Of a DNA stretch of 64,000 nt, positions 4,947-64,000 are shown piece by piece. Under the pieces are notes generated by a model that had not been told where the DNA came from, made no database searches, and saw nothing but the letters and a program-made list of their open reading frames with translations. The stretch covers positions 32,001 to 96,000 of the forward strand of contig CP000067.1 of assembly GCA_000002445.1 (NCBI GenBank), given 5' to 3'. Positions within the stretch are counted from its first letter, which is position 1, and each line of letters begins with the position of its first letter. The stretch is from Trypanosoma brucei (lineage: Eukaryota). The position numbers were made by a program, and so were the translations under genes.

Positions 4947-5390
4947 TTCACTGTCCGAATAATAGCCTTAATTGAGTGTGTTGTGTTATTTCCTTTCTTT
5001 GTAACATAAATTAAAAAAAGAGATTAAAAATAGGGGAATATAAAAAGATACACTTCTAAACCAAATTACAATCAATGAATATTAGGAATTAATATGGAAG
5101 ATGAAAACTATTTATTGAAATTAGGATTCAATACAAATCTTATCATGTGTTGGGGTGTCACAGCAACTTAAGCACAAATAAGGTATGACAGTATGAATAA
5201 ACATTTCTGTTGGGAGTAAAACTCAAACAACAATTCCCAGTTACTGCACACAATCATTTCAGAAAAAATAATATACTTACATATATATGGGTATGGAAAA
5301 GCAAAAAAAATAAATAAATGTGGCATTGCCATGAAAAACAGCATATAATAGCTTTACTGATAAGCTATGCAAAACGTAGAATACTCGGTT
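4947..5390 (-). repeat. Conserved ~440 bp RHS 5' flank module, copy A (5'UTR plus a polypyrimidine/AG splice-acceptor region).
   Basis: Almost identical to 19464-19907 and ~90% identical to 10103-10490. Each copy sits directly upstream of an RHS start codon. Confidence 0.75.
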
Positions 5391-48880: not shown

Positions 48881-50080
48881 TTAGGCGTCCAAAACAATGT
48901 GCTCTTGTGCTAGCCCGTCAGTATCGATGGCTTCACAGTGCCGGATGGCATACAAAATCCGGTCACGCATAACATCAATTGAACTGTAGGCGGGTATACG
49001 GAGTGTAAAGAAACAAGTATTACTGGTTGGAAGGGAGTCACGGGTCCCTCCCCTTTTAACTTTGATGTTTTCCTTGAGCGGCAGCCTTGTTTGTCCCGTT
49101 GTAAAGCGGAGAAGCAGCATCCGGTCTTTATCACACATAGTTTCAATAACTTCGTCAAACATTTGTGAATCGTTTGAGGGGAGAGAGACCTCACAAACGT
49201 CACGCAGTGCTTGACAAGATAACTTAGGCGTCCCACAAATGATCAACTCCACTTGCTGCCAGCGGAAGGCATTGAGTGTGTACAAGGGGATTACTTGACC
49301 GAACCCATGCCGAATATGGCTGATCACCACATCATACTTGTGAACTTCGATGGAGGCAATATGTTCTGCGAGTATTCCCGCAGTACGAAGATCCACAGGC
49401 GGCAATTCCTCCCGCATTCTAAGGTGAGAATTTTCACTACAGAATCTCAACCAACTCTCCTGTAGGCCTGGAAATCTCTCCTCCAGCTCCTCAGCCGTCC
49501 GCTCTGCTAACGCCTCCGGTGTTAATTGCCTCATTATGTCACGATCCATGGCCCTCAGGTCACGCAGTGATGTTTCCTCGCTAAGTAAGAGTTTCCAAAA
49601 CAGTGGTGGAAACTCCACGGCGAGGAGATCTTTGGTAATAAAACACGCTGCGAGAAACTTCCCGAAAAACTCGAACATGGGAAACAGCTGAAATTCAAGA
49701 GCCATTGTTGCATTTGGCATCACGGCCAACTGCCCATCACAACCGCAGTCCTTAAAGAGGGGATTCTGTTGGAATTTCCCGCTTGGGTGTGTTGACATAA
49801 TCTCTGTCGCAAGCTGTGATAGAATATCGCGGTAAGGTCCCCCCACGTCCGTAGATCCAAAACCGGCAAGCTTTACGGTGAACATGGGCGAGACATAGAA
49901 GATAGAAATCGGACTTCGCTGAAGCTGCGCGAACAACTGTCCGAACACGGAACGCATTAGCGTTGGGTAAAAACCGTAGCGCACAGAGGCCCGGGCGTGC
50001 ATTGTATGAATGGTAACTTTCCCTTTGTGCCCCGTGCGATTTCTGAAAGGCCGCATTGTCTCATTTTGGATTTTTTTTGA
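48881..50080 (-). other. HECT catalytic domain (N- and C-lobes) of the giant ligase.
   Basis: Motifs as listed for the parent gene. Confidence 0.8.
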
Positions 50081-53000
50081 AGACTCTGCAGAGCAAAGGC
50101 TCTTAAGCTTCTTCCACATTTCAAAAAGTTCTGTGCTGCGCCGAATGTCAACTACCACAGAAAAAACAGCCGTCAGTGTATCAAATATTTGTAGACGCTT
50201 AACATATGGTACGAGCCGCTCAATCGGAACATCGTTCCCCAGGACGTCAGCACCAAGGAAGGACAACAAGTGAGTATATTCCACTAAATCATGGGAAGGA
50301 ACAGTCAACGACGCATCACCGTTAGGGGAAACAAGCAACTTCTCTGATATCGAAAAGGTTTGACAAAACAGGGACAATTCAGCATAAAATTCGAACGATT
50401 GCGCGACAACCTCCGTGTCGAGGCGATGGGGATGTTCCTGGAACCTGCTGTAGAGTTGGGACACGTCCATACCAGTAGATGCTTCAGTGAGAAGTTGCTC
50501 ACCATGAAACGTTGCGTCTTCCCTTCTTTCCGCGAAGAACACCGGAAGTGCCAACATTTCGTTAGGAAATGTCTCAAATCGAGTAGTTGTTTCATTTTTC
50601 GACTCCCTCTGGAGATTAAATATAACGGCTTGCTCATGATATAAACACGTTACCAGAACAATGTCGCCACCTTTTGCTCTCACTTGCAATGGCTGCGATT
50701 CTTTTTTACGGCTTAGACAAAGATGTATCTTTCCATTTGGCTTTATGAGGTAACCACATGACGGTAACAAAGTGCTGGCCGACGACTGATCCTTATCTGA
50801 CGTACCTGCTGCTAGGGAACCCGGTAGTGAAGCATCCATGTTCCATCCAACGACAACATTTCCACATCGTGCAGAGTTCAAAACTACTTCGAATTTTTTC
50901 GAACCGAATGTACATCGAAACGTTTGGGAGAAGACACCGTAACAGCTACAGTACCCCTCGGGTGATGTTGGGCCGGTCAGTAGCTCAAAGCTGATACGGT
51001 GTGACTCCTGTTGCCCTCGCGTGAAAGCCTCGGGTAAAGGCCGTGGTGGTTTGGATGTAACCGCTTCGATGGCCAACTTCGTGCAAATGACAATGGCATA
51101 CGGTACACAACTCTGCCTCCCAGGAGCTGGTAAACTGGGTCGCTCCAGTTGATAACGCTGCAGAAGCTCACTCACCAGCAATATACCCAACTGTACAAAC
51201 GTACAGGACATCTTCCCCCTCTGACACATGCTACTTATCACAGCTAGAAGTGGAGCAAGTGATGCGCAAAGGGCTTCATGTGATGGCAGCGGGCAATTGC
51301 TCATTTTAAGCAACTGAAGCACGCATCGCAGAGCAACATTTCTTACCGCACGTACATGTGCCGTTGCGGTGCGAAGCAATAAAAGCATCAATGTTGATCC
51401 GAATGATGTCGACAGAAGATGGATGACGCCATCAAGGCTGAGCGACACATAAATGAGGTTGACGCTAACTTCCACGTTTTCTGCACTTTGCGCAGCGAAT
51501 GGCGCCGCAAGGCATGCGTAAGCGGCCGCAAGCAGAAAAAATGAGGATCTGCGGACCTCCGCCCGAACCAAAGCAGTGAGGGAGGACAAATCATTCCGCA
51601 GTGTAGTGTACGGAAGCAGATGTTGTAGTGTCTTGAGTGTATCCGATGAATTGCAACTCATGATGACGGTACCAATCAGTTTCTTCGCATACGACACCAT
51701 GGCCTCTTCAACTTGTGGTATAAGACTCGACTCACCACCACTTTGAATTCCTATAGCTGGTGTATTCCATGAGTGCTGACCGAGAGACCCCATCCCCTGC
51801 GAAACATTGGGTGAGATGCGGTCAATCATCAGTTGGGTCCATATTGTATCCATTGCACTGCGTTGAACGGGTGAATCTTCCTTGTGCAACACACGCCAAT
51901 GCACGACTTTGACGGAAGTACCGGGAGCAGAGAGCGTAAATGAAAGCTGCATATCTGCCGGGCAGTCCCTCCCTTGTAACACTTCGTATACCGTCTCCCC
52001 GTTCACCACCACAAGAGCGCGTTTCGCCCAGGGTATAACGCGAATGTAAAGTCGAACACATTTGACGGAAGATGTCGGCAATATGAGCGATTCACCATGA
52101 ACAGGAATTATCGGGATGGGTACGTCCACAAACCAAGCTGTTGGGGGATGTTGAAAAGTAACCCGCGCGGGAAACTGCACGGAGGTACACACCAGGAGCT
52201 CTATCTCATGTAACTTGAGTCCCTCGATCACTGGTTTTGTCACGGTGCACGATTGTGGGCCAATACTTGAGACGTGTTGAACACAACCGTTTGAAATCGT
52301 GACGTGTTGTGGAGAAGCTGAGAATGTCACCTCTTCCTCTACCCACGGTTGTTGTCGCTGAAACTTCAGCAGCAAACGGCGTCGGTGGTTTTGCCTTTCC
52401 AAGATTGGTGACAAGTCACGTTCGGCATCCTCCTTTGTCTGGGGTACATCACAAAAAGGTAAAGATACTGCGGAGACATCGCTACGGTAAGTGACGCAAG
52501 AAGCAACTGAAAACTTTGGTGTTTCATGGGGTACCGCGCAGCACTTGAGAGCGAATCCGTTAAAGAGAAGGTTGTGCTCAAGCGGCACACTTGTATCATA
52601 GGAGAAAACGGCAGTGTCATCCTCAAACTGAGTAAAATCGCAGTTGTAGCTCCTCGCGTTTACGAAGACACTAAGGGGGAAAATATCTTCGCAAGTTGGA
52701 ACAGGGCCGTAAACCAAAAATAGCGCCGCCTGCGAGAGATCGTCCTGTAATTTTTTAACTATCCGGTATCCACCGTCCTCTAATGAAGTTACACAACGTC
52801 CCAACTCATCCACATAAATAAAGATGTGCTTCTTTCCGTCTAATGACTCGACCTTAGAAAGGTCCTCTCCGTCAGTGCCCTCCGACGAACTCACAAAAAG
52901 CGAGGAGCCCTGTACACTGCTTATCTCCTTTACGGAAACTATGCATGACGTCCGAATCGGATCTGACACCCACCAAAAAAAATCACCTTCAGTGGTGAGA

Positions 53001-56000
53001 CGATCCGTGACTGCACACTGGTTACAGATCCGTCTGTTGAACTGAAGTTTGCTGCTTTGCATGTGCGGGGGGTTTAAGCTTCCTAAAGACAGGTAACGGC
53101 CGCAGATAACTCCGCGGAGATCATCCTCCAGTTGCCTCCAGGCAGGCGAGTCATCGAATGATACTCTAGAAACAGTCTCCCACTGCACCCATTCCATTCT
53201 GGTTCCTCCGAGAAAAATAAGCCGTTGTTCGCCGCTTTCACAAAGGATTAAACCACGCCCTAACGATTCGACCGTTACGGGCCCTCCGACAGGTCGATTA
53301 AATTGGAGATCTCTCGCGTTTACGCGTTGGCATAGGTAACTCCGATAACCGCATGACTGCGATGGAATCGTGTACGTAATTCCTCCATGAAGAAGCTGCT
53401 TCTCCTTCTGAATGCTTGAAAATGGTAGCGTACATGTAGTTACCCTCCCCGCCGTAATTCCAATATATTTATCCTCCAAAGCAACATTTGACAACCCTGG
53501 TCTTCCGTCCTCCGACACTGTGTAGAACATGATACTACTGTGGTTTGTGGTATGAAGAAAGAAAGCCACATGCTCCCCTGGAGAGATGGTTATAGACTCA
53601 AACCCCTCTACTTTCGCTTCAACGCCTCGTGCAAGCTCCATATCCCTTCGCATGACAACTTGCCACTCACCGCCTTGCTCTTCAACTCCTCTGAAAGTCC
53701 CATTACGCATAAAGAGAGTTACGGTCGCGGTAGATGTTGTGTCAGAGACAAAATACACCTTTACAATGTTCACCTTATTTCGTTTCGCAATAACATCAAA
53801 CATAATCCCGCTGCACGAGTTACCAGGAATGCACGCTTGGCGGCCCGTTTGAAGAAATATTGTCTCCTCTCCGGCACTCTTTTTGGCATCGTCTGCAAAC
53901 TCCCTTAGTTGATCAAGAATGTATGAAATTGTCATATTACCCTTTTCCAGCATGCCTGCAGCGGACCGGAAACCTTCCTCACATATTAGAAAGGTGCTGA
54001 ACATACGAAGGAGTTGGGCACAGCTCCACAAATCACCCTTCATATCACGTGTTCCTTGTCGCTGAAGCTGTGGGGAGGCGAAATGATCGTATCGACGTAA
54101 GGTATAAACATTCCAAACTGCGCATGTGACCGTGGCTCCTCGGCCAGTTTTCACATACACATTTTTCGGGTGGATGTTGCCGTGGATTAGAGAATGCAGG
54201 TGCCAGTGCTCCAACGCGGCAAGGAGGGACATAACAATGGATTTCTGTTGTTGTTTGGAGAATCTTTCCATGTCTAAGGAGTTAAGAGTGCCGTCAAACC
54301 AGCCATGCGTAATAACACCAAAACTTTTTGAGGAGTCCAATGACTGCATTATGTCCTCTTGGTACATTACACACGGATGCTTTGTTACTACGTTAAAGGA
54401 CGTAACAGTTATTTCGGGGTCATCATGGCTAAATATGTGCAGTGTTCGCTTGCTTGTTGTGTTGTCGTCAAAATATAGTAAACGAACCATAGAGCTTCCA
54501 CCGACCCTACCAATAACCTCGTATGCGCTAGGCAACCGTATAAAAGTGTCCCCTTCATCTGCGGTTCCAGGAATGAAAACGTGCGGTTTATCCAGCGGTG
54601 ACGACAAAGCATCCACTACCCTCCGAACCGCAGTTTGACCGCAAAATTCCTCAAGCTTTTTGTCCTCAACTCGAATCATCTCACGCGAAAAAGCACCCAC
54701 CTCCGCGAGTTGCTTAAGAGCATTTGACAATCTGTAAGCAAGTTTCGAGTTCCCGCAATGGTCACACCAAATGAGTTCAATGGCAGTCACACGATCTGAA
54801 GGTAGACTGTAGAGTACATGTCGAAGTACGGTGTACGTTGAAACCACTACGCGGAACGGTATTCGGCGAAGAATAGTCGGTGTTATTGGGTGTGATGCCA
54901 GCACCACGGAAGGTGGTGCTCTAAACTTTCCGGCTCCCAATGCACCACCGTAAAAGGTAGCAAGCGTGGCGGACGCATTAGCATGGTCCAAACGAACAAA
55001 GGGAGACACGCTCAGATTGGAAGGTATATTGTGAAAGACAACCCTTGGGGACTCATTGTTACGTGCTAAAGAAAGGGTTCCATTGTCACGATCAAGAAGA
55101 AAATGCAACTTTGTTCCCGCAAGAAACATCGTGTTGCCTGACGAGTCAATAGGGGGAATTCGTTCCTGTGTGGGTAAAGAGTCGCCGTCGAGAACATCTT
55201 GCACTATCCAAACCTGGTCAACTTGCTCACGAAGTTTCACGAAGTGCGGCTCCAGCTGGTCGAAGGTCGATACCACAATTCCAGCAAAGTGCCCAGAACC
55301 AAGTGAATCACCTCCGGCACGGTCACTGCGGGTTATTTGCACAACAAATCCCGACAAACCAACTGTTGGAAGTGGGGACCCAATCACTGCTTGCCCGGAT
55401 GCATCATTACAGCTTGCCGTGCGACCTTTGTTCGAAATGACTACTTTGGACGGATTACACAAAGTCCACACGGGGGTGTATTCCACAACACCCTCAGACC
55501 AGCTCCTTGATCTTGTGGATATGCCTCTGTCGATCACCTCTCGTGGTGAATGGAGGTAGAGGCTAGTAGGATGAGGCCCTACGTTCATAACTGCTATCTT
55601 CGGTGAAATCCCCTTCAACGACGAGCCAACGTGCTCCCTGTATGAGACATGGCAGCGAACGTTGTCATCCTCATCGTACACGACAAAATCGTTATCAGCT
55701 GTGAATGCGAGAGTAAGTTCTTCGTCACGTGCGAGGCTGAAGCTGCGGTGAATCACACTGTTTCGACTCCCTTCCCAGTTTATCTTAAAAATAGGTCTAA
55801 ACAGTTGGACGAGCACTTCCAAAAAGAAAACATTGGCACTTGTCGCAGACACTGCCCCCAGCTTCCAGAAGCGTGGCTTATTCACTGGCCAGGCACCTGT
55901 GCTGAACACTCCCTCAAGCTCGCATGCTTCGCTTGGTTTCAATTCTACTGTGTCATACCCCCCTGCCCAGCGCCACGGATGTGACACCGAACTCATGAAA

Positions 56001-59000
56001 GGCGTAGGTGGTGGGAACGTCATCTCACAAATTGAGAGACGCAAACAGTCACAACCCCTTCTCTTAACGAAGAAGCAATACTGCGAGGGAGCAAACACTC
56101 CTAACTGCTCGTGAAGCGGTCCTCCGTGAGCTGCGTAATATGTTGCAGGTTCGTAGAGGATATCCTGCTCGATATCATCACCAAAAACAATGTGCAAAGA
56201 GACTTGCAACAGTTTGGGGCGTGATTTGCTGCTTAAACGTAGTGGAAGATCGGTGACGAACGCAACTCCCCAGGAGTCCCCGAGGGGAGTAAACAAAAGG
56301 GAGACAAACGCAGCCAGATTTTCATTATATACAAAGGGACAGGCAAAGCTGCAGCACTTTTCGTTCCATCCGTCTTCGTGAAGAAGCTCCGGTGATAACA
56401 TGTATTCTACGCTACCTGAATCCAGCGCTCTACCCGAAATCGAGTCGTGCCTCCTTGCTTTGATAATTCTATCAGCGGCAAAATTTGTCGACCTTGTGTG
56501 GCGCACCAAAGACGATGCACACGCGCTGCCAGCATCAAAGGACAAGTTCCACCGTTGAGCAATGTACCGTGCTAATATGCTAATCAGATGTTCTTCCTCC
56601 CTTAAAGCAGGAAAATGGACAGTTCCTGTCGCCTGGCATACGCTTTCGACAGCAAAGGGTTGGTGGCACCAGCCACACTCAATAACAGGAACTAAACAAT
56701 CTACTGGTACCGTGACACAGACGGGAGTACCACCCCTACCAACCTCTACCGCGACTTGGGATTTAATATCGGGATCACTGACTAGACGCACCAGCTCCCC
56801 GGCGGAAAACTCCCCTGACCCCAGTGCGATGACAGCAAGATCTCCCTTGCACAGCGAATTGAAGTATGCCACACCATTCACACCAAACGGTAGTGTCACA
56901 ACACCATCACCCAAGGCGTCTGTAAGATTCCCGTTTACCACACCACTCAACAGATCTTCAGATATTTCTTGCCTACCAACGTTTCCCGGTCGCGCCTTCA
57001 CAAGCTTTCCAAGGGATTCAATCACACCAGTATCTTCAAAGGGTTGCGTAACCGAAAACGGCCCGCTGGCAAAAGCCACTAGCGCTGTCAGAAGGCGCGT
57101 AATGACAAACCCCTGTACTGCGGGGAAAACAGCCATGTTACGTCCCAGTAAGCGCCGTTGAACAATAAGACGGTAGGTGACACGCCCACGAAAGGCACGA
57201 GGTTCTGATGGTATCTCCAAGAAAGGTACAATCCCCTCGCTTTTCTTTCCAACATAAATTGTCAAAACCCCGTCGCTCTCGAATTCGTCGCCCACATCGC
57301 CAACGTGCCCATCGCTGCTGTTATAAAACCGGACTCCACAGCTGGATGTTGTGTTGACATACAAAGCGTACATCTGATTCGCCCGCAGTTGAAGATTGAG
57401 TGGACCCGGAGAAAAGGTCTGCTTATCTGCCAGGTAAAGGTACCGAGTTGCGACCTCTTTCCATTTTGAAGGGACCTTTTCAGCGCCCTTCATACTTCCC
57501 TCCTTCCAGAAAACTCTGACATTTATGTTATCCGCTGTTGTTTGAGAAATGCAGAATATTTCTTCCAACAACACATCCTGCTTGCTGCGGATGTCGAACA
57601 TGATGCCGTTGTATGATGCTGAATTGTTTTGGCTGAGATGCCCACCCGTCGATATAGCGGAAAGAACCTCTGACACGCTCATGGGGTTTGCAGGTACGGC
57701 AAGAATATTACCCACAAGTCCTCGGACAGAGAAAAAGGTATTGCTTACACAGTGACCCTGCTCGCTGCAGGTAAAAAAACATCGTATCCGCTCCCTTCCT
57801 CTTTCCCTTACCATGCCCATAGTTCGTTCACAGACAGCACTGAAGACATAAGTCCCCCTTTTCATTTTAAGTTGGAGTTTATTCATTACGATTCTGTGTG
57901 AGCACTCTTTCGGGAGCAATACCTCATGATGTACCCAGACCCAATTCCTCTCTCTCGATGTCACACCCTCGGTAGAGTCGTTCACGTCAGCGCAATACAG
58001 AGAAACATGAAAGCTCATCGGACCTATAGTGTGCCCCACGTAGGGTTGAACAAAAACGGGTAGTAGAAGCTCTCGCAGCACAACCGGACCATCAAAAACA
58101 GTAACAACAAATTCAGCTCTTTCCGAAAGAGTAGACATTTGGGGGCGACTGACCAGTGGCAGATGATCGCTGCACCCATCATTATTCCTTTCATCCCACT
58201 CTCGCCACACAACAGAATCAGTTTCCTCCACTGCGAGAGCCTGTGCCTCTTCACTACGCACGTACACTATGGAACCGCAAAACCCGCAAGAGTTGGAACT
58301 AACATCAGTAAAGGGGGTGCTACTCTCGCTGGTGCGCCCCATCAAAACTGTGAGGGTACCGTCGGAGTCCATTTCCGATGAAACGGCCCCCGAGCAACCT
58401 CCCTCCTTCGCGTAATGGCCGACTCCAAAGTTGTGCGTAGCGTTGATGTATAAAGCGAAAGTTGAGCCGCCTTCAATACGGATTCCGTGAAACGTAACGG
58501 AGAACTGACGACCCGCGCGCATCTTAACAAAGTTAGAGAATATCTTCGTCCACGAGCCGCTAGTCCGTTCATGCATCTGGTGAGAACCCTTCTTGAAAAA
58601 TACTTCCACCCGATGGCGTCCCGAAGCGTGGGTGAGAACGGTCAAACCGGTCAGCACAACCGAATCCTCAGCTCGAACATCAAACATAATACCATTGTAG
58701 GACTCGTTGCGTAAAAGCCTGAATTTTGTGCTCCCCACAACAAACACACGCGTGACGCTGCCATCGGGGGCTTTCAGAGCGGGATATGGGGGTTGTAAAA
58801 CTTTGTGTGGTCCCTCGTTGTCCAGCACATAGATGCTGTTTTTATCCAGGGAGAAGCAGACACGCTTATCCGTTTCGTCGCATACGTTGACTGTATTGCC
58901 CCCTATTGACGTGACAAGCCCACGTTTGGGCTGAACGAGGCTTCCGGCTTTGAAGGCCACCTTAGCACCCACTACAATAGCGGCCGCATCAGCGGAAAGC

Positions 59001-62000
59001 GCACAGTGGCGAACATCGCGTTTCCGCACAACGTACTCTCGCTTTCCTTGGCACGGGCACAAACACTTCACAACCCCAACTCCAGAACCACATGTGCGGA
59101 CGACCCTCCCCAGATGAGCCTTTCCAAATAGTGGCGGCACCACCGTTGCAGTCATTCCACGCGTCGAAAGGTAAGCAACAAGCCGAGGCCGATGCAATAG
59201 AGTCTCCGGAGGGATCGTATATGTCGCTATCAGCAGACCGTTGCGGTACGCGGCCACTTCCCTGTCCACTCGCTCGACCGTTATTGTGTCGCCAATAGAA
59301 AAGAGTATCCCAGTACCCTCCTCTGCTATACGCGGCGCAACCTTCCAAGCGGTTCCGCATTGAGCCATGGTGTAGCTAAGAGTGTCGAAGAGAAGATTGT
59401 TGCAGCCCATAATGCCAATGTCAGGACCTATACAGTTACTTGGAATGAGTCCAACGGCCACTGAAGAGGAATTTATATCCAAAGCATCATCATTGACGGA
59501 AACCCATCCACCTGTAGAAGTAACCTGGCATGGTGTGCGCGTGAACACAATCACACGCAAATTCGTGTCTTCTTCAATGGGGCAGTTGCACGTCGCCACG
59601 GTCGGGTGAAGATGAAGACCGCGAAGGGAGGAACTCAGCATAATGGATCCCTTTGTCATATCAACTGAGAGATATACACTGCGAGGCGTAGCCGCTTTAG
59701 TTTTGGAGTCACTCCATGTGCCCCAGATGTTACCGTGTGCTATGCGGCGCTCAAACTCCGCGGAAGTCATGACGCGGTAATCACACTCTTCGCTCGTTAC
59801 ACCCACAAAAATCGCAGAGGCATCAACTGGCGACGGCTCAATATCCTCATCAAGAAAAAGCATACTAACCACAACTTTTGAGCTGTTAGGAATCACAGTC
59901 GGGCTGATCAAGATCATGTTACTCTTAATTGATACACTTGTTTGCAGAAGGTTATTTACACACCACAGCAAATCGAAGGAGTGTAAACCTCCAAATGAAA
60001 AGCCGTCAACACCAGCAACGTGGCTAACGGTCACATCAACACGGGAGTCTCCATAGGTGGAAAAGTCATCTAGCACAGCAAAGGCAGCGCCATCAGTCGC
60101 TATACAGGTACTTCCATCGATTTGGACATTAACACTTTTATCACGCATCCATGCAAACGCTGCGGTTTCCATAAAACCAACAATGCTGCCAACGACCAAC
60201 TCCTTCGGGCTGTGCTGCGACAAAAGATAATCCGTAAGGTTATCGTTGTGATCGGTGAAGTGAAACATACATTTTGGGTAACGCCAACTATTGAAACACT
60301 CAGAGCACAGACAAATTCCACCTTCCCCCTCGTACCACGCCTCCAACATCTCCGAACCGCACGATGCGCACAGCACCGGAGGAGTGCTACGTGTCAGGGC
60401 ACTAATGTTGCTGGGGGGGTATGTGTTTCGCGCAGGGAATGTGTGGCAGTCAAGAAATGAGAAGACAACAACCGAATCCGGTCCAGTAAGCACGAAGGGC
60501 CTCAGCTTTTTCTCTTCAGGTATCTTCTCAAACAAAACACCAAAATCAACGCACTTACCACCACGAACACGAGAAAATGAAGCTGTTCCTTCCTGCCTAT
60601 TCACTTTGATAATTACTACATCATCCGAGTCAAACAACAATTGCCCGGCACTGTATATCATACCAGGCTCCACGAAACAGTTCGTGTTATTAGTTCCCTC
60701 TGAATCACGGTTACATAAGGCCCAAATATTTTCGCACCGTACTATCGCCTGGGGTTCTGCCGGCTCCTCTGTTTCTGCCGTTACGCCGATGTACATAAGC
60801 GTCCCTTTACTCTCTGCAATTGTGATACTTACGGCAAAGGAGAATACGTCCTCAAGCACAACGTTGCCTCGCACCGCTGAGTAGTGCGCAGCCGAGGTTA
60901 CACCGATCGACGGGCTTGGTGTGAACAGACTTTTCGTGGAGAAACGTCGGTCGATAACAACAGGTGTCCTCGACATGGGTTGTTGGCCGTTAACCATGCG
61001 GAACGAAGAAGATGTTGATTGAGTCGCTGAGACGGGAGCATTGCGCCTCAGTAAGGTCACAGAGCCTTTTTGGTTAGTTGTTTCATGACGTATTATTTGA
61101 AGAGCAGTATATTCCATATTCATTGCATCAGTAATTGTTTTAACAAAATTTTCCGCGATGTCCATTCTCTGCTCCTTTTCATCGTTCATTAGCGGCACGA
61201 CCGCAGATGCTTCAAACAAAATTCTTCTTAACCCGCTGGTTAACCAGCCACAACACCTCAAACTCTCTCCCTCCGAAACCGAAAAAAGCGCAGGCATTAC
61301 GAAGGAGGGCTTCAGGTCTGCAACATCTGTAGAGAATTGCCTCCCATCCGGATCGGCCTCAAGGTAAACCACAGCTCTTGATGCAGATTCGGATATGGAA
61401 TCTACAACGACGGGACCGTGCGTTTTATGTTGGCAGAAGAGTCCACTTCTTTCACCACCCAATATGGCTAGTGCGACTATACATTTTTCGAGGTCATAAC
61501 TAGACCGAACAAAGAAGGAATATATCCAATCCGATATCGCTGGGCCGAAGTATGGAGTGACGTGGAGTTGTTGAAGGACACTAACCGCCACACCCCGTCG
61601 CAAACTGGAAAGCAATAATTCACATGATTCCTTTACCTGTGAGGGGTCAGCGATAATATCACAAACCGCGTCTTCGTTGAAGTGGAACACAAATGGATAT
61701 AAATCATCGACACGGTGAATGTTTGCGAAGGCCAATCCGATGCGCACCATGTTTTCTCTGTAGTATGTTATCTCCCCTACATCAGCGTTTAGTTCAACCC
61801 ACACAACTTCATCACATCCGTAAACCCTCCGCTGACTGTTACGGGGAATGGTTTGGCGGCGCAGAAGGAGGTGTGGCACCTGATCACCGTCGTCAGCGTC
61901 TTGCAAAATGTAAACGTCATCCCTAGAAATTAAACTTGCCATAGTGGTAACAGGTGTATGCCCATGTGAGAGACCGATGTAATAGCAACCCCCCAGCGAT

Positions 62001-63979
62001 GCACCAACTCCATGGCCCATTTGCATTTGGCGGCGGATGCGGAAACCAACTTTATGAGTCCCTCTTGCAGGTAGTGGCTTCTCCCCATAAAAAGCACCCC
62101 CACCGGTGACTCGGGTCCGACCACCCGTCCACCGTGGAATGAAGGCGCGTTGCGAACACTCGGGATAGATTTTTGCGCGTGCAAGCTCCGTAAGAGAATT
62201 CACAATGACATCGGGGGACATGGAACCTCGTAATGCCTCGACAGCCTCTGCAAAACAGTCCTGCCGTAGTGTACGTGCCATGTGGCCAAGGGAGCGAGCC
62301 GCACGTGCTTTCACCCAGTGATCATGAGCCTCGCTTAATGTAATCGAACAAATTCGTAATATTTCGAGGTGGGCCGAGCGACTAACTAGACTGCAACGAA
62401 AACTATCAATAACGACGTTAACTATGCGAAAAAGTCTCGTTAGTAAAACACCACCAATATGGAGTCTTTGCCTCTTGAGTAAGTGAGTGCTTTCATCACT
62501 GTATAGGTGTTTGAGACTCGTGACAAGTTCAACAACAACATCTCTAAGAAATACGGAGGCTTCCTCAAGCAGCGCACAAATAGAATCCCCATTCGCATTG
62601 AAGCCGGGTTGGCCAAGCCGTTGTAGATTCTTCAAGCATACGGTTACGAGATAATGCACGGCAATAAACGAAGCATCACTAATCATAACAGGCGAAACGG
62701 TTTGAGTCCGACAAGAGCTGTGCAGAGAAGCCATATCAAATTCGAACGGAGCGTTTTCTCCGAAGTTCACTATCAGTTTGACGAGCATTCCATCCGTCTG
62801 CACGGCAACAAATGGTATAATGGTGGAAAAGGTACATTCGGTAGCAATTCCTAGAAATTCCCCGTTGCGAGTAAAGAATAAACTGGAAGATGGGGCCATA
62901 ATGCCGCAGCCAATGACGTCTCCGACCGACCAAGGAGTCGAAAATTCCACATTAGCGTTGGAATACCTTACAGTTCCATCTGAACAAAAAGCTGCTGAAC
63001 AATCCTTTCCGACTGACTCACACGACGAAATGGAGGAACTTGTAACACCAATGCAAACAAAAACCTCCTCATTGAGAGCAAGTTCGAGAGTTATTTCAAA
63101 GTACAAAACCTCCGCCATATCAGCCAACACACACCCACCAGCGAGAGCTGCATAGCAATCCCGTTGAGCTGGTGACATATCAAATGCCTCCTCTGCTTTA
63201 AAGGCTCTCCACTGATTACGTGCTAAGAAACATATGTCGGCACCTTCAACATGTACGCCCAGTGTATCACCCTCCACTACTGTAGCACCATCCGCTGCAG
63301 GCTGTAATGAATTTGGTACAATGACGCTACGATAAAGCAAATTAAATAAGCCACGATCCTGTAAGAAACGGTGCCACGCAATATCAGTGCTGCTTCCATT
63401 AAGTGGAGTGACTACCGTATCTGCAATCGGTGCGAGAATATAGGTTTTAAGAACGCGGAAAACTTTCGACGGATTTATTGCGGAAAGGTCCACACTGTCC
63501 CATGGGTGGCAAAGAACGGCACACAGAGAAAGCGCCTCCATACCCCTTGACGCCTCGCATTGCAGCTTGGCCTCAACTATTCGCGAAAAATTGCGGTGAA
63601 TAACACAGTGAAAAAAGCTACAGGTTGCCCTCTGGAGCTCCAGTTCCCGCTGGAACCCACAACCAATAATTGGCTCAATGTAGTGAACCTCCGTCAGATC
63701 CTCTAAAGTAGCCTCGCTATAACCAGAGTTAGTACGGACATTATTGGAGGCTTCGTTGCTGTATTCACGGCGCCTCGATCGTATAAACTCCCTGTAGAAA
63801 AGGTGTGAGTTCACGATTAACCACGACATATCCTCATCTAGTTGGTGAGAAGACAACAGTTTTTCCTGAAGCCTGAGTACGGCCTTGTTATTGCTGGCGT
63901 ACCTTGCTTTTTCAACAAGTGCCCTTACCAAATCCTCGTTCGTAACACCGTTACACCCATTAAGAAGAAATTTGAACAC
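48881..63979 (-). CDS. Giant HECT-domain E3 ubiquitin-protein ligase (partial). At least 5032 codons fall inside the window, and the N-terminus extends past the window end.
   Basis: The C-terminal ~400 aa form a canonical HECT domain (AGFGSTDVGGPYRDILSQLATE ... FEFFGKFLAACFITKDLLAVEFPPLFWKLLL ... TCFFTLRIPAYSS with the catalytic Cys). The reading frame stays open through position 64000, since the codon at 63977-63979 is GTG and not a real start. Confidence 0.9.
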   Translation of the reverse strand: MFKFLLNGCNGVTNEDLVRALVEKARYASNNKAVLRLQEKLLSSHQLDEDMSWLIVNSHLFYREFIRSRRREYSNEASNNVRTNSGYSEATLEDLTEVHYIEPIIGCGFQRELELQRATCSFFHCVIHRNFSRIVEAKLQCEASRGMEALSLCAVLCHPWDSVDLSAINPSKVFRVLKTYILAPIADTVVTPLNGSSTDIAWHRFLQDRGLFNLLYRSVIVPNSLQPAADGATVVEGDTLGVHVEGADICFLARNQWRAFKAEEAFDMSPAQRDCYAALAGGCVLADMAEVLYFEITLELALNEEVFVCIGVTSSSISSCESVGKDCSAAFCSDGTVRYSNANVEFSTPWSVGDVIGCGIMAPSSSLFFTRNGEFLGIATECTFSTIIPFVAVQTDGMLVKLIVNFGENAPFEFDMASLHSSCRTQTVSPVMISDASFIAVHYLVTVCLKNLQRLGQPGFNANGDSICALLEEASVFLRDVVVELVTSLKHLYSDESTHLLKRQRLHIGGVLLTRLFRIVNVVIDSFRCSLVSRSAHLEILRICSITLSEAHDHWVKARAARSLGHMARTLRQDCFAEAVEALRGSMSPDVIVNSLTELARAKIYPECSQRAFIPRWTGGRTRVTGGGAFYGEKPLPARGTHKVGFRIRRQMQMGHGVGASLGGCYYIGLSHGHTPVTTMASLISRDDVYILQDADDGDQVPHLLLRRQTIPRNSQRRVYGCDEVVWVELNADVGEITYYRENMVRIGLAFANIHRVDDLYPFVFHFNEDAVCDIIADPSQVKESCELLLSSLRRGVAVSVLQQLHVTPYFGPAISDWIYSFFVRSSYDLEKCIVALAILGGERSGLFCQHKTHGPVVVDSISESASRAVVYLEADPDGRQFSTDVADLKPSFVMPALFSVSEGESLRCCGWLTSGLRRILFEASAVVPLMNDEKEQRMDIAENFVKTITDAMNMEYTALQIIRHETTNQKGSVTLLRRNAPVSATQSTSSSFRMVNGQQPMSRTPVVIDRRFSTKSLFTPSPSIGVTSAAHYSAVRGNVVLEDVFSFAVSITIAESKGTLMYIGVTAETEEPAEPQAIVRCENIWALCNRDSEGTNNTNCFVEPGMIYSAGQLLFDSDDVVIIKVNRQEGTASFSRVRGGKCVDFGVLFEKIPEEKKLRPFVLTGPDSVVVFSFLDCHTFPARNTYPPSNISALTRSTPPVLCASCGSEMLEAWYEGEGGICLCSECFNSWRYPKCMFHFTDHNDNLTDYLLSQHSPKELVVGSIVGFMETAAFAWMRDKSVNVQIDGSTCIATDGAAFAVLDDFSTYGDSRVDVTVSHVAGVDGFSFGGLHSFDLLWCVNNLLQTSVSIKSNMILISPTVIPNSSKVVVSMLFLDEDIEPSPVDASAIFVGVTSEECDYRVMTSAEFERRIAHGNIWGTWSDSKTKAATPRSVYLSVDMTKGSIMLSSSLRGLHLHPTVATCNCPIEEDTNLRVIVFTRTPCQVTSTGGWVSVNDDALDINSSSVAVGLIPSNCIGPDIGIMGCNNLLFDTLSYTMAQCGTAWKVAPRIAEEGTGILFSIGDTITVERVDREVAAYRNGLLIATYTIPPETLLHRPRLVAYLSTRGMTATVVPPLFGKAHLGRVVRTCGSGVGVVKCLCPCQGKREYVVRKRDVRHCALSADAAAIVVGAKVAFKAGSLVQPKRGLVTSIGGNTVNVCDETDKRVCFSLDKNSIYVLDNEGPHKVLQPPYPALKAPDGSVTRVFVVGSTKFRLLRNESYNGIMFDVRAEDSVVLTGLTVLTHASGRHRVEVFFKKGSHQMHERTSGSWTKIFSNFVKMRAGRQFSVTFHGIRIEGGSTFALYINATHNFGVGHYAKEGGCSGAVSSEMDSDGTLTVLMGRTSESSTPFTDVSSNSCGFCGSIVYVRSEEAQALAVEETDSVVWREWDERNNDGCSDHLPLVSRPQMSTLSERAEFVVTVFDGPVVLRELLLPVFVQPYVGHTIGPMSFHVSLYCADVNDSTEGVTSRERNWVWVHHEVLLPKECSHRIVMNKLQLKMKRGTYVFSAVCERTMGMVRERGRERIRCFFTCSEQGHCVSNTFFSVRGLVGNILAVPANPMSVSEVLSAISTGGHLSQNNSASYNGIMFDIRSKQDVLLEEIFCISQTTADNINVRVFWKEGSMKGAEKVPSKWKEVATRYLYLADKQTFSPGPLNLQLRANQMYALYVNTTSSCGVRFYNSSDGHVGDVGDEFESDGVLTIYVGKKSEGIVPFLEIPSEPRAFRGRVTYRLIVQRRLLGRNMAVFPAVQGFVITRLLTALVAFASGPFSVTQPFEDTGVIESLGKLVKARPGNVGRQEISEDLLSGVVNGNLTDALGDGVVTLPFGVNGVAYFNSLCKGDLAVIALGSGEFSAGELVRLVSDPDIKSQVAVEVGRGGTPVCVTVPVDCLVPVIECGWCHQPFAVESVCQATGTVHFPALREEEHLISILARYIAQRWNLSFDAGSACASSLVRHTRSTNFAADRIIKARRHDSISGRALDSGSVEYMLSPELLHEDGWNEKCCSFACPFVYNENLAAFVSLLFTPLGDSWGVAFVTDLPLRLSSKSRPKLLQVSLHIVFGDDIEQDILYEPATYYAAHGGPLHEQLGVFAPSQYCFFVKRRGCDCLRLSICEMTFPPPTPFMSSVSHPWRWAGGYDTVELKPSEACELEGVFSTGAWPVNKPRFWKLGAVSATSANVFFLEVLVQLFRPIFKINWEGSRNSVIHRSFSLARDEELTLAFTADNDFVVYDEDDNVRCHVSYREHVGSSLKGISPKIAVMNVGPHPTSLYLHSPREVIDRGISTRSRSWSEGVVEYTPVWTLCNPSKVVISNKGRTASCNDASGQAVIGSPLPTVGLSGFVVQITRSDRAGGDSLGSGHFAGIVVSTFDQLEPHFVKLREQVDQVWIVQDVLDGDSLPTQERIPPIDSSGNTMFLAGTKLHFLLDRDNGTLSLARNNESPRVVFHNIPSNLSVSPFVRLDHANASATLATFYGGALGAGKFRAPPSVVLASHPITPTILRRIPFRVVVSTYTVLRHVLYSLPSDRVTAIELIWCDHCGNSKLAYRLSNALKQLAEVGAFSREMIRVEDKKLEEFCGQTAVRRVVDALSSPLDKPHVFIPGTADEGDTFIRLPSAYEVIGRVGGSSMVRLLYFDDNTTSKRTLHIFSHDDPEITVTSFNVVTKHPCVMYQEDIMQSLDSSKSFGVITHGWFDGTLNSLDMERFSKQQQKSIVMSLLAALEHWHLHSLIHGNIHPKNVYVKTGRGATVTCAVWNVYTLRRYDHFASPQLQRQGTRDMKGDLWSCAQLLRMFSTFLICEEGFRSAAGMLEKGNMTISYILDQLREFADDAKKSAGEETIFLQTGRQACIPGNSCSGIMFDVIAKRNKVNIVKVYFVSDTTSTATVTLFMRNGTFRGVEEQGGEWQVVMRRDMELARGVEAKVEGFESITISPGEHVAFFLHTTNHSSIMFYTVSEDGRPGLSNVALEDKYIGITAGRVTTCTLPFSSIQKEKQLLHGGITYTIPSQSCGYRSYLCQRVNARDLQFNRPVGGPVTVESLGRGLILCESGEQRLIFLGGTRMEWVQWETVSRVSFDDSPAWRQLEDDLRGVICGRYLSLGSLNPPHMQSSKLQFNRRICNQCAVTDRLTTEGDFFWWVSDPIRTSCIVSVKEISSVQGSSLFVSSSEGTDGEDLSKVESLDGKKHIFIYVDELGRCVTSLEDGGYRIVKKLQDDLSQAALFLVYGPVPTCEDIFPLSVFVNARSYNCDFTQFEDDTAVFSYDTSVPLEHNLLFNGFALKCCAVPHETPKFSVASCVTYRSDVSAVSLPFCDVPQTKEDAERDLSPILERQNHRRRLLLKFQRQQPWVEEEVTFSASPQHVTISNGCVQHVSSIGPQSCTVTKPVIEGLKLHEIELLVCTSVQFPARVTFQHPPTAWFVDVPIPIIPVHGESLILPTSSVKCVRLYIRVIPWAKRALVVVNGETVYEVLQGRDCPADMQLSFTLSAPGTSVKVVHWRVLHKEDSPVQRSAMDTIWTQLMIDRISPNVSQGMGSLGQHSWNTPAIGIQSGGESSLIPQVEEAMVSYAKKLIGTVIMSCNSSDTLKTLQHLLPYTTLRNDLSSLTALVRAEVRRSSFFLLAAAYACLAAPFAAQSAENVEVSVNLIYVSLSLDGVIHLLSTSFGSTLMLLLLRTATAHVRAVRNVALRCVLQLLKMSNCPLPSHEALCASLAPLLAVISSMCQRGKMSCTFVQLGILLVSELLQRYQLERPSLPAPGRQSCVPYAIVICTKLAIEAVTSKPPRPLPEAFTRGQQESHRISFELLTGPTSPEGYCSCYGVFSQTFRCTFGSKKFEVVLNSARCGNVVVGWNMDASLPGSLAAGTSDKDQSSASTLLPSCGYLIKPNGKIHLCLSRKKESQPLQVRAKGGDIVLVTCLYHEQAVIFNLQRESKNETTTRFETFPNEMLALPVFFAERREDATFHGEQLLTEASTGMDVSQLYSRFQEHPHRLDTEVVAQSFEFYAELSLFCQTFSISEKLLVSPNGDASLTVPSHDLVEYTHLLSFLGADVLGNDVPIERLVPYVKRLQIFDTLTAVFSVVVDIRRSTELFEMWKKLKSLCSAESSKKIQNETMRPFRNRTGHKGKVTIHTMHARASVRYGFYPTLMRSVFGQLFAQLQRSPISIFYVSPMFTVKLAGFGSTDVGGPYRDILSQLATEIMSTHPSGKFQQNPLFKDCGCDGQLAVMPNATMALEFQLFPMFEFFGKFLAACFITKDLLAVEFPPLFWKLLLSEETSLRDLRAMDRDIMRQLTPEALAERTAEELEERFPGLQESWLRFCSENSHLRMREELPPVDLRTAGILAEHIASIEVHKYDVVISHIRHGFGQVIPLYTLNAFRWQQVELIICGTPKLSCQALRDVCEVSLPSNDSQMFDEVIETMCDKDRMLLLRFTTGQTRLPLKENIKVKRGGTRDSLPTSNTCFFTLRIPAYSSIDVMRDRILYAIRHCEAIDTDGLAQEHIVLDA
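53340..53790 (-). other. Repeat module R3 (~150 aa beta-sandwich-like module beginning CSGIMFDV...).
   Basis: Homologous to R1 and R2: a (Y/S)xGIMFD(V/I) opening, then a hydrophobic-alternating strand pattern, with the S/T-rich middle most evident in R3. Confidence 0.5.
54000..54600 (-). other. Protein-kinase-like (probable pseudokinase) domain embedded in the HECT giant.
   Basis: Gly-rich loop-like IGRVGGSSMV. Catalytic-loop-like LIHGNIHPKNV, with HGN where active kinases have HRD. Subdomain IX-like DLWSCAQLL. No clear DFG motif. Confidence 0.5.
57170..57625 (-). other. Repeat module R2 (SYNGIMFDIRSKQDV...).
   Basis: Same module as R1 and R3. Confidence 0.5.
58250..58715 (-). other. Repeat module R1 (SYNGIMFDVRAEDSV...).
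   Basis: Same module as R2 and R3. Confidence 0.5.
62735..63292 (-). other. SPRY/B30.2-like domain near the N-terminal end of the visible part of the HECT giant.
   Basis: WSVGDVIGCGI ... LFFTRNGEFLG, a characteristic SPRY signature. Confidence 0.5.
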
Positions 63980-64000
63980 TAAGGTTGAAATACTCTCCGT

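What the first reader, a model, noticed from the sequence alone, without database searches (positions are those of the whole stretch)
48881..63979. Giant (>5000 aa) HECT E3 ligase combining SPRY, three GIMFD beta-sandwich-like repeats, a Cys-rich motif and a pseudokinase-like domain
The open frame covers 15.1 kb and continues past the window edge. Domain-level signatures, from N- to C-terminus, are: SPRY (WSVGDVIGCGI ... FFTRNGEFLG); a Cys cluster (CASCGSEMLEAWYEGEGGICLCSECFNSW), possibly zinc-binding; two ~150 aa modules opening SYNGIMFD(V/I); a kinase-like domain; a third GIMFD module; and a canonical HECT domain with the catalytic Cys. The combination of SPRY, HECT and a pseudokinase on one polypeptide is unusual. 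The overall scale recalls metazoan giant HERC-type ligases, but the repeat modules and the kinase-like insert are not part of those as far as I know.
Basis: partly seen in the sequence, partly recalled or inferred. Interest (0 to 1): 0.7.

Follow-up and report, generated by a model that had tools for sequence, protein, structure and literature searches.

The report
Giant trypanosome HECT ubiquitin ligase gene
The open frame is the last 5,032 codons of Trypanosoma brucei gene Tb927.4.310, an already annotated 6,613-residue (733 kDa) HECT ubiquitin ligase. Besides its known SPRY domains it carries a dead kinase domain, a small zinc finger and three copies of a widespread but uncatalogued beta-sandwich module.

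Summary
A stop-free minus-strand frame runs from the window edge (64000) to a stop at 48881-48883. It is 100% identical to the C-terminal 5,032 residues of T. b. brucei TREU927 XP_844181.1/Q57UU4 (6,613 aa, 733.5 kDa), which is gene Tb927.4.310/Tb427.04.310. Published dual-colour single-mRNA FISH shows that its 5' and 3' ends sit on one mRNA, so it is not a gene fusion.

- HECT: Pfam E 1e-43, catalytic Cys present, closest solved relative HECTD3.
- SPRY: four domains, not one.
- The Cys cluster is an invariant C4, ZZ-like finger, with marginal statistical support.

The architecture is conserved across kinetoplastids. The gene is known. The pseudokinase, the PHR-like modules and the finger appear undescribed. 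No functional data bear on what the ligase targets.

The parts
48881..64000 (-). C-terminal 5,039 codons plus the stop (48881-48883) of Tb927.4.310, a 6,613-aa HECT E3 ligase. The N-terminal ~1,574 codons lie beyond the window edge.
   Evidence: Only one stop in the frame. 100% identity to the last 5,032 aa of XP_844181.1/Q57UU4 and 11 differences to the T. b. gambiense protein. Gene identity comes from ORF length and description in PMC5397161.
62735..63127 (-). SPRY domain 1 (aa 285-415)
   Evidence: Pfam SPRY PF00622 E 2.7e-23, 82.8 bits, best stretch aa 292-396. Conserved in orthologues.
61640..62107 (-). SPRY-type domain 2 (aa 625-780)
   Evidence: One of the 3 SPRY stretches in segment 1. 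Internal similarity to aa 2868-2995. jackhmmer links domains 2, 3 and 4.
60455..60853 (-). SPRY-type domain 3 (aa 1043-1175)
   Evidence: Pfam SPRY 24.3 bits, just under the cutoff of 26.3. The T. rangeli orthologue scores 31.2 bits for the same domain. jackhmmer.
60245..60382 (-). ZZ-like C4 zinc-finger motif (aa 1200-1245): C1204-x2-C1207-x17-C1225-x2-C1228-F-x2-W
   Evidence: The four Cys plus Y, F and W are invariant in 7 kinetoplastid orthologues including Papus. The profile's best PDB match is the RSC8 ZZ finger, at marginal E-values of 0.018-0.08. Dystrobrevin ZZ scores 0.46. Pfam gives only sub-threshold treble-clef hits.
58256..58711 (-). GIMFD module 1 (aa 1757-1908), a PHR-like beta-sandwich
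57161..57625 (-). GIMFD module 2 (aa 2119-2273)
   Evidence: Internal repeat. Family profile.
54950..55462 (-). SPRY-type domain 4 (aa 2840-3010)
   Evidence: Internal similarity to SPRY 2 and 3. jackhmmer E 1e-46. Weak Neuralized (SPRY-like) hit in the T. rangeli orthologue.
53855..54547 (-). Pseudokinase domain (aa ~3145-3375). H3181 replaces the beta3 Lys, H3266-G-N3268 replaces HRD, V-W-N (3288-3290) replaces DFG, and N3273 and D3316-x-W-S are kept.
53357..53827 (-). GIMFD module 3 (aa 3385-3541)
   Evidence: Internal repeat E 1e-9 and 1.5e-6. Folds as the same sandwich in the second AF2 model.
48884..49942 (-). HECT domain (aa ~4680-5032). Catalytic Cys is aa 4989 (nt 49013-49015), 43 residues from the C-terminus.
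   Evidence: Pfam HECT E 1.3e-43, 150 bits. Closest solved HECT is HECTD3 at E 1.7e-26, with the Cys aligned in the T-C motif and a shared C-x-AIDTD tail. Position.

Best explanation
The region encodes most of Tb927.4.310, a single-polypeptide 733-kDa HECT-type ubiquitin ligase that is conserved across kinetoplastids.

Shown here:
- A C-terminal HECT domain of the HECTD3 type with its catalytic cysteine.
- Upstream of it, in order: SPRY, SPRY, SPRY, a ZZ-like C4 finger, two tandem PHR-like beta-sandwiches ('GIMFD' modules), a fourth SPRY, a catalytically degenerate protein-kinase domain, a third GIMFD module, and a long helical/unassigned stretch.

Inferred mechanism:
- The HECT domain takes ubiquitin from an E2 as a thioester on Cys4989 (Cys6570 of the full protein) and passes it to substrates.
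- Substrates are held by the array of beta-sandwich interaction modules (SPRY and PHR-like).
- The pseudokinase cannot phosphorylate. It acts as a docking or allosteric module, for example for a kinase, a kinase substrate or a regulatory partner.
- The zinc finger is a further small recognition element.
For: - Identity: exact match to XP_844181.1/Q57UU4. [quoted passage not shown] ORF length and description match Tb427.04.310.
- One transcript: 5' and 3' smFISH probes coincide on about 2.3 mRNAs per cell (PMC5397161).
- HECT and SPRY score above the Pfam cutoffs.
- The HECT domain is closest to HECTD3, with the Cys aligned.
- GIMFD repeats, AF2 pLDDT 96, and PHR as the nearest fold by two methods.
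- Kinase homology and kinase fold, with the catalytic Lys, Asp and Asp replaced in every orthologue.
- C4 finger invariant.
- The same domain order occurs in T. b. gambiense, T. rangeli, T. vivax, Porcisia, L. tarentolae, unnamed ENA/Logan proteins and the prokinetoplastid Papus.
Against: - No biochemical or genetic data on this protein were found in the held literature. Ligase activity, substrates and the role of each module are inferences.
- The T. brucei kinase-like region alone is below the Pfam cutoff (19.5 vs 31.7 bits).
- The AF2 model predicts no helix where helix C should be.
- The GIMFD family has no sequence link to PHR: hhalign probability 0.25%, and no Pfam PHR hit in 51 modules. 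Most relatives are extracellular bacterial proteins, so their ligand could be something other than protein.
- The ZZ assignment is statistically marginal.
- About half of the protein has no assigned domain.
Confidence: 0.85

Rival explanations
1. The 15-20 kb ORF is an annotation or assembly fusion of two or more adjacent genes that are expressed as separate mRNAs.
For: Trypanosome genes are packed in polycistrons, and no processing signals were examined here. The T. b. equiperdum and some T. vivax records split the protein into several shorter models.
Against: A continuous frame of 5,039 codons. [quoted passage not shown] Full-length models of 6,613-6,644 aa exist in T. b. brucei, T. b. gambiense, T. 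vivax, Porcisia and an ENA protein, with the same domain order.
Confidence: 0.02
2. The kinase-like domain is an atypical but active kinase or nucleotide-binding enzyme that uses migrated catalytic residues, making the protein a bifunctional kinase-ligase.
For: The catalytic-loop Asn (N3273) and an invariant His-rich motif E-H-x-H-x-H...H-G are strictly conserved from Trypanosoma to Papus. This implies selection on that site. Some annotated pseudokinases have turned out to be active (general knowledge; PMC10211241 was listed but not read).
Against: The beta3 Lys, HRD Asp and DFG Asp are all replaced by non-equivalent residues in all 8 orthologues. The Gly-rich loop is not conserved. No helix C is predicted.
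Confidence: 0.1
3. The GIMFD modules are carbohydrate- or small-ligand-binding modules (CBM-like) that were inherited or acquired from secreted bacterial or protist proteins. They let the ligase recognise glycans or other non-protein marks rather than acting as PHR-type protein-binding domains.
For: The family is dominated by secreted proteins: 26 of 45 sampled carry a T9SS sorting domain. It is also found on a metzincin protease and in a diatom. Second-tier structural neighbours are CBM32/CBM6/CBM35 modules, the Cwp84 lectin-like domain and phage receptor-binding proteins.
Confidence: 0.2

Closest known systems
Human HECTD3 (DOC/APC10 beta-sandwich + HECT)
   Same: Closest solved HECT domain: E 1.7e-26 against 2e-17 for E6AP. 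The catalytic Cys aligns and the C-terminal C-x-AIDTD tail is shared. Both have a beta-sandwich recognition domain upstream of HECT.
Metazoan giant HERC ligases (HERC1: SPRY + RCC1-like + WD40 + HECT; HERC2: RCC1-like, ZZ, DOC, HECT)
   Same: Size class above 4,800 aa, C-terminal HECT, SPRY in HERC1, and a ZZ finger plus beta-sandwich in HERC2 (domain content from general knowledge).
   Different: No RCC1-like domain was detected anywhere in the protein, and that domain defines HERCs. The HECT domain is nearer to HECTD3. The pseudokinase and PHR-like modules are absent from HERCs.
MYCBP2/Highwire/RPM-1 ('PHR proteins') with FBXO45/FSN-1
   Same: A ligase above 400 kDa with tandem PHR beta-sandwiches (PMC4806438). 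It works with a SPRY-containing recognition subunit (FBXO45; general knowledge). The GIMFD fold is nearest to MYCBP2 PHR1/PHR2 and BTBD2 PHR.
   Different: The catalytic module of MYCBP2 is RING/RCR, not HECT, and its SPRY is supplied in trans. No sequence similarity was found between the GIMFD and PHR families. The resemblance may be analogy or very remote homology.
Other trypanosomatid HECT ligases ('SPRY domain/HECT-domain' proteins; TbE3HECT1 = Tb927.8.1590)
   Same: Same annotation class. Leishmania has four SPRY/HECT genes (PMC10063166). T. cruzi HECTs carry SPRY, ZZ and LamG3 domains (PMC5976635). L. mexicana HECTs reach 733 kDa (PMC7647121).
   Different: TbE3HECT1 is a different, 470-kDa gene with ubiquitin-binding motifs (PMC9163028). 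None of the papers read mentions a kinase-like domain or the GIMFD/PHR-like modules.
E3 ligases that carry a kinase domain, e.g. plant KEG (RING + kinase + ankyrin + HERC2-like repeats)
   Same: A ubiquitin-ligase catalytic domain and a kinase-fold domain on one polypeptide (general knowledge, not tested here).
   Different: KEG is a RING ligase with an active kinase. Here the ligase is HECT and the kinase fold lacks its catalytic residues.

Membership tests
HECT E3 ubiquitin ligases | C-terminal HECT domain scoring above the Pfam PF00632 cutoff | tested here: met
   150.2 bits against a cutoff of 23.9, profile positions 26-301 of 306. 39 solved HECT domains match at E<=1e-10.
HECT E3 ubiquitin ligases | Catalytic cysteine in the C-lobe, about 35 residues from the C-terminus | tested here: met
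   Cys4989 in PTSNTCFFTL aligns with the HECTD3 catalytic-site motif PESSTCSSTL. It lies 43 residues from the C-terminus and is conserved in the orthologue consensus.
HECT E3 ubiquitin ligases | Forms a ubiquitin thioester and ubiquitinates substrates | not testable with these tools
   Needs biochemistry.
SPRY domain (PF00622) | Match above the Pfam cutoff | tested here: met
   SPRY1 scores 82.8 bits. SPRY3 scores 24.3 bits here and 31.2 bits in the T. rangeli orthologue. SPRY2 and SPRY4 are tied to SPRY3 by jackhmmer.
Eukaryotic protein kinase superfamily | Sequence homology to the kinase domain | tested here: met
   Orthologue profile: 531 PDB kinases at E<=0.01, best 2.2e-10, covering the N-lobe through helix F. 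Pfam Pkinase matches 4 of 7 orthologues, best E 1.2e-15. The T. brucei copy alone reaches 19.5 bits, below the cutoff of 31.7.
Eukaryotic protein kinase superfamily | Bilobal kinase fold | tested here: met
Eukaryotic protein kinase superfamily (active enzymes) | Catalytic residues: beta3 Lys, HRD Asp, DFG Asp | tested here: not met
   Lys is replaced by His3181 (Arg in others). HRD becomes H-G-N3268 (H or R in others). DFG becomes V-W-N. This holds in all orthologues. Hence pseudokinase.
PHR domain (PF08005; MYCBP2, BTBD1/2/3/6) | PHR beta-sandwich fold | tested here: met
PHR domain (PF08005; MYCBP2, BTBD1/2/3/6) | Sequence membership of the family | tested here: not met
   None of 51 modules hits any PHR model at E<=10. 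The 51-sequence profile finds no PDB sequence. hhalign against a small PHR alignment gives probability 0.25%. In that alignment two rows come from PDB alignments, and one row is a sequence recalled from memory that matched BTBD2 at 1.8e-29.
ZZ-type zinc finger (PF00569) | First zinc site, C-x2-C ... C-x2-C, with an aromatic residue after the last Cys | tested here: met
   C1204, C1207, C1225, C1228 and F1229 are invariant in 7 orthologues.
ZZ-type zinc finger (PF00569) | Second zinc site (C-x2-C plus two His) and a significant profile match | tested here: not met
   The second C-x2-C is replaced by E-G-E-G. Pfam gives no ZZ hit. The best PDB matches are the single-site RSC8 ZZ finger at E 0.018-0.08 and dystrobrevin ZZ at 0.46.
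HERC family | One or more RCC1-like domains together with HECT | tested here: not met
   No RCC1 hit in the five window segments, in two orthologues or in the N-terminal 1,620 aa.

The most novel reading that the evidence does not exclude
The 'GIMFD' module is a large, uncatalogued domain superfamily. It has at least 4,200 cluster representatives in Bacteroidota T9SS cargo, other bacteria, diatoms and kinetoplastids. It would be the deep, pre-metazoan relative of the PHR domain. Kinetoplastids would then have independently assembled a MYCBP2-like recognition platform (PHR-like + SPRY) on a HECT engine together with a conserved pseudokinase. This would be the first HECT-pseudokinase fusion, possibly coupling kinase-pathway sensing to ubiquitination.
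Probability: 0.35. Interest if true: 0.6.

Novelty: new variant of a known kind. Interest (0 to 1): 0.45.

Why it matters
- Trypanosomatids regulate almost everything after transcription, so their ~12-16 HECT ligases are candidate master regulators and PROTAC handles. Almost none has a known substrate.
- This gene now has a concrete domain map: 4 SPRY, 3 PHR-like modules, a ZZ-like finger, a pseudokinase and a HECTD3-type HECT domain. That gives defined fragments for pull-downs and point mutants.
- A HECT ligase with a built-in pseudokinase was not described in any paper found here.
- The analysis also exposes a domain family of more than 4,000 proteins with no Pfam or NCBIfam model, whose nearest solved fold is the supposedly metazoan-specific PHR domain.
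- The gene itself and its SPRY/HECT nature were already known, and nothing here shows what it does in the cell.

Tried and rejected
- With the GIMFD region or its profile it returned only P0001 and P0002 and no kinetoplastid orthologue. The exhaustive HMMER search was needed.
- Exact look-up of two neighbouring RHS proteins, to recover the contig, found nothing.
- The Foldseek afdb50 library was not available.
- Pfam and NCBIfam have no model for the GIMFD module.
- PDB sequence searches with GIMFD profiles gave nothing meaningful.
- hhalign of GIMFD against PHR was negative. I therefore do not call the modules PHR domains, only PHR-like in fold.
- Pfam on the N-terminal 1,620 aa outside the window gave no hit. 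By eye it looks LamG/ConA-like around full-length aa 600-720, but this was not confirmed.
- I considered HERC membership and rejected it because no RCC1-like domain is present.
- A candidate fifth SPRY at aa 4330-4490 was not recovered by jackhmmer.
- The regions aa 1250-1745, 1910-2115, 2280-2840 and 3545-4680 remain unassigned.

Full report
**What is in the sequence**

On the minus strand, the frame that ends with a stop at 48881-48883 is open all the way to base 64000. It has 5,039 codons and a single stop. The ORF listing reports it as 48881..63979, 5,032 aa, counted from the first GTG. I number residues from that GTG, so aa 1 is nt 63979. A stop-free run of this length has a chance probability of about 1e-105. 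Coding G+C (0.46-0.51) also stands out from the 0.30-0.40 of the rest of the window.

**Where it comes from**

Every other large ORF in the window is a retrotransposon hot spot (RHS) protein. That family is characteristic of Trypanosoma. The exhaustive profile search returned a 6,613-aa protein (P0003) that is co-linear with the window ORF. Cluster look-up names it T. brucei gambiense XP_011772586.1. Its cluster mate P0155 is T. b. brucei TREU927 XP_844181.1/Q57UU4.

The window ORF is 100% identical to the last 5,032 residues of P0155 and has 11 differences from the gambiense protein. The full protein is 733.5 kDa. About 1,574 N-terminal codons therefore lie outside the window.

Kramer (NAR 2017, PMC5397161) describes Tb427.04.310 as the fourth-longest T. 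brucei mRNA and a putative ubiquitin-transferase. Its ORF is given as 19,841 nt, non-repetitive, with UTRs of 187 and 499 nt. That length matches 6,613 codons. Probes to its extreme 5' and 3' ends co-localise on about 2.3 mRNAs per cell. I infer the gene identity (Tb927.4.310) from length, description and chromosome-sized contig, not from an accession cross-reference. So do the full-length orthologue models of 6,613-6,644 aa.

**HECT and SPRY**

- Pfam gives HECT at E 1.3e-43, 150 bits.
- The closest solved HECT domain is human HECTD3 (E 1.7e-26). E6AP follows at 2e-17, then the NEDD4 family and HUWE1. The catalytic Cys (aa 4989) aligns, and the C-x-AIDTD tail is shared.
- Pfam SPRY scores 82.8 bits for aa 292-396 and 24.3 bits for aa 1048-1175.
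- Tile-against-tile BLAST and jackhmmer over the orthologues define four SPRY-type domains: aa 285-415, 625-780, 1043-1175 and 2840-3010.
- No RCC1-like, WD40, DOC or other Pfam family was found in the window, in two orthologues or in the N-terminal 1,620 aa.

**The 'GIMFD' modules**

The three modules (aa 1757-1908, 2119-2273, 3385-3541) are significant internal repeats, with E 5e-27, 1e-9 and 1.5e-6. Neither Pfam nor NCBIfam has a model for them.

A profile of the three copies plus three copies from two metagenomic proteins was scored against 1.84 billion cluster representatives. It found 4,202 proteins at E<=1e-3 and 2,143 at E<=1e-10. The top hits are the giant kinetoplastid ligases. Below them are hundreds of 400-1,500-aa proteins with 2-5 tandem copies.

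Of 45 sampled proteins, 26 carry a type IX secretion sorting domain. Others are a Mep72-like metzincin (P0001), Cys-rich secreted proteins (P0002) and a diatom protein from Proboscia alata.

At sequence level I found no link to PHR. There is no Pfam PHR hit in 51 modules and no PDB sequence hit. hhalign against a small PHR alignment gives a probability of 0.25%. I therefore describe the modules as a separate, uncatalogued family with a PHR-like fold. Whether they are homologous to PHR is open.

**The kinase-like domain**

- The T. brucei region alone hits 184 PDB chains at E<=10. All are protein kinases, and the best is 3e-5.
- A profile of seven orthologues hits 531 kinases at E<=0.01. The best is 2.2e-10, aligned from the Gly-rich loop to helix F.
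- Four of the seven orthologues match Pfam Pkinase, down to E 1.2e-15. The T. brucei copy reaches only 19.5 bits, below the cutoff.
- In all orthologues, including the prokinetoplastid Papus, the beta3 Lys is His or Arg. The HRD Asp is Asn, His, Arg or Ala. There is no DFG Asp. The catalytic-loop Asn, the D-x-W-S motif and a His-rich E-H-x-H-x-H...H-G motif are invariant.
- This is a conserved pseudokinase. The conserved His cluster is unexplained.

**The Cys cluster**

Only four of the six cysteines are conserved: C1204, C1207, C1225 and C1228. They are invariant, together with Y, F and W, in seven orthologues. The pattern C-x2-C-x17-C-x2-C-F matches the first zinc site of a ZZ finger, with the second site lost. 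The profile's best PDB matches are the single-site ZZ finger of RSC8 (E 0.018-0.08 once the duplicated chain is discounted) and, weakly, dystrobrevin ZZ. Pfam gives only sub-threshold treble-clef hits. Zinc binding is likely. The ZZ label is tentative.

**Conservation**

phmmer of 22 T. brucei segments against the giant hits shows the same order in several lineages: SPRY1-3, finger, GIMFD x2, SPRY4, kinase-like, GIMFD3, helical region, HECT. These lineages are T. rangeli, T. vivax, Porcisia hertigi, Leishmania tarentolae and unnamed ENA/Logan proteins of up to 7,728 aa. The Papus ankaliazontas protein shows part of it; its kinase-like region becomes visible in the alignment. The architecture therefore predates the trypanosomatids.

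**Interpretation**

Shown: this is a bona fide, expressed, conserved HECT ligase gene with the domain set listed above.

Inferred: ubiquitin passes from an E2 to Cys4989 and then to substrates held by the SPRY and PHR-like sandwiches. The pseudokinase and the finger act as further docking or regulatory modules.

The closest analogies are:
- HECTD3, for the catalytic domain;
- HERC1 and HERC2, for size and for SPRY and ZZ;
- MYCBP2 with FBXO45, for PHR x2 plus SPRY on a ligase above 400 kDa (PMC4806438).

It is a member of none of these beyond the HECT superfamily.

Rival readings are an atypical active kinase (about 0.1) and glycan or other non-protein ligands for the GIMFD modules (about 0.2). 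Neither is excluded. The gene-fusion reading is effectively excluded.

**Novelty**

The gene and its SPRY/HECT annotation are known (PMC10063166, PMC5976635, PMC7647121, PMC5397161). In the literature I could search, I found no mention of a kinase-like domain, of PHR-like modules or of the finger in this protein or its orthologues. UniProt names it only by SPRY or HECT. I rate it a new variant of a known kind, of moderate interest. It is a useful domain map and a pointer to an uncatalogued domain family, but there are no functional data.

Noticed in passing
window 22845-46294 (-), repeat signal ~22400-43800 and beyond: Tandem array of five RHS (retrotransposon hot spot) ORFs of 565-572 aa, each with DUF7578 + RHS_N + RHS P-loop domains. 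The period is 5,430-5,435 bp. Copies 1-4 are 97.5-99.8% identical in protein. The copy nearest the ligase gene is only ~77% identical.
   Followed up: partly
window 7136-9331 (-): An RHS gene split into two ORF fragments. One holds RHS_N plus the first 20 residues of the P-loop domain. The other holds P-loop positions 209-312. It is probably a frameshifted or disrupted RHS pseudogene. Three more RHS ORFs lie at 2907-4946, 14048-15922 and 17436-19463.
   Followed up: no
window 58256-58711, 57161-57625, 53357-53827 and proteins P0001-P0151: The GIMFD module belongs to a family of at least 4,202 cluster representatives that has no Pfam or NCBIfam model. Most members are Bacteroidota T9SS-secreted proteins with 2-5 tandem copies. 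It also occurs on a Mep72-like metzincin, on Cys-rich secreted proteins and in the diatom Proboscia alata.
   Followed up: partly
window 54179-54211 (aa 3257-3267): An invariant His-rich motif, E-H-x-H-x-H...H-G, spans helix E and the catalytic loop of the pseudokinase. It is conserved from Trypanosoma to the prokinetoplastid Papus. It may be a metal or ligand site and is unexplained.
   Followed up: no
P0005 (T. vivax Y486, 6,096 aa) vs P0160 (T. vivax, 6,613 aa): The Y486 model lacks most of the kinase-like domain: only ~170 aa lie between SPRY4 and GIMFD3. Another T. vivax entry is full length, so this is probably an assembly gap or annotation fragment rather than real domain loss.
   Followed up: no
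window 48884-48940 (C-terminal tail of the ORF): The HECT domain ends in HCEAIDTDG...LDA. This C-x-AIDTD tail is shared with human HECTD3 (NCVAIDTDM) and places the domain in the HECTD3 branch rather than the NEDD4, HERC or E6AP branches.
   Followed up: partly
window aa 1620-1740, 2385-2440 and 3575-3620 (approx. nt 58760-59122, 56660-56827, 53120-53257): By eye, short stretches resemble SH3-like/MIB-HERC2/CPH-type beta-barrels (G-x-V...V-x-V pattern). There is no Pfam hit and no test was made.
   Followed up: no
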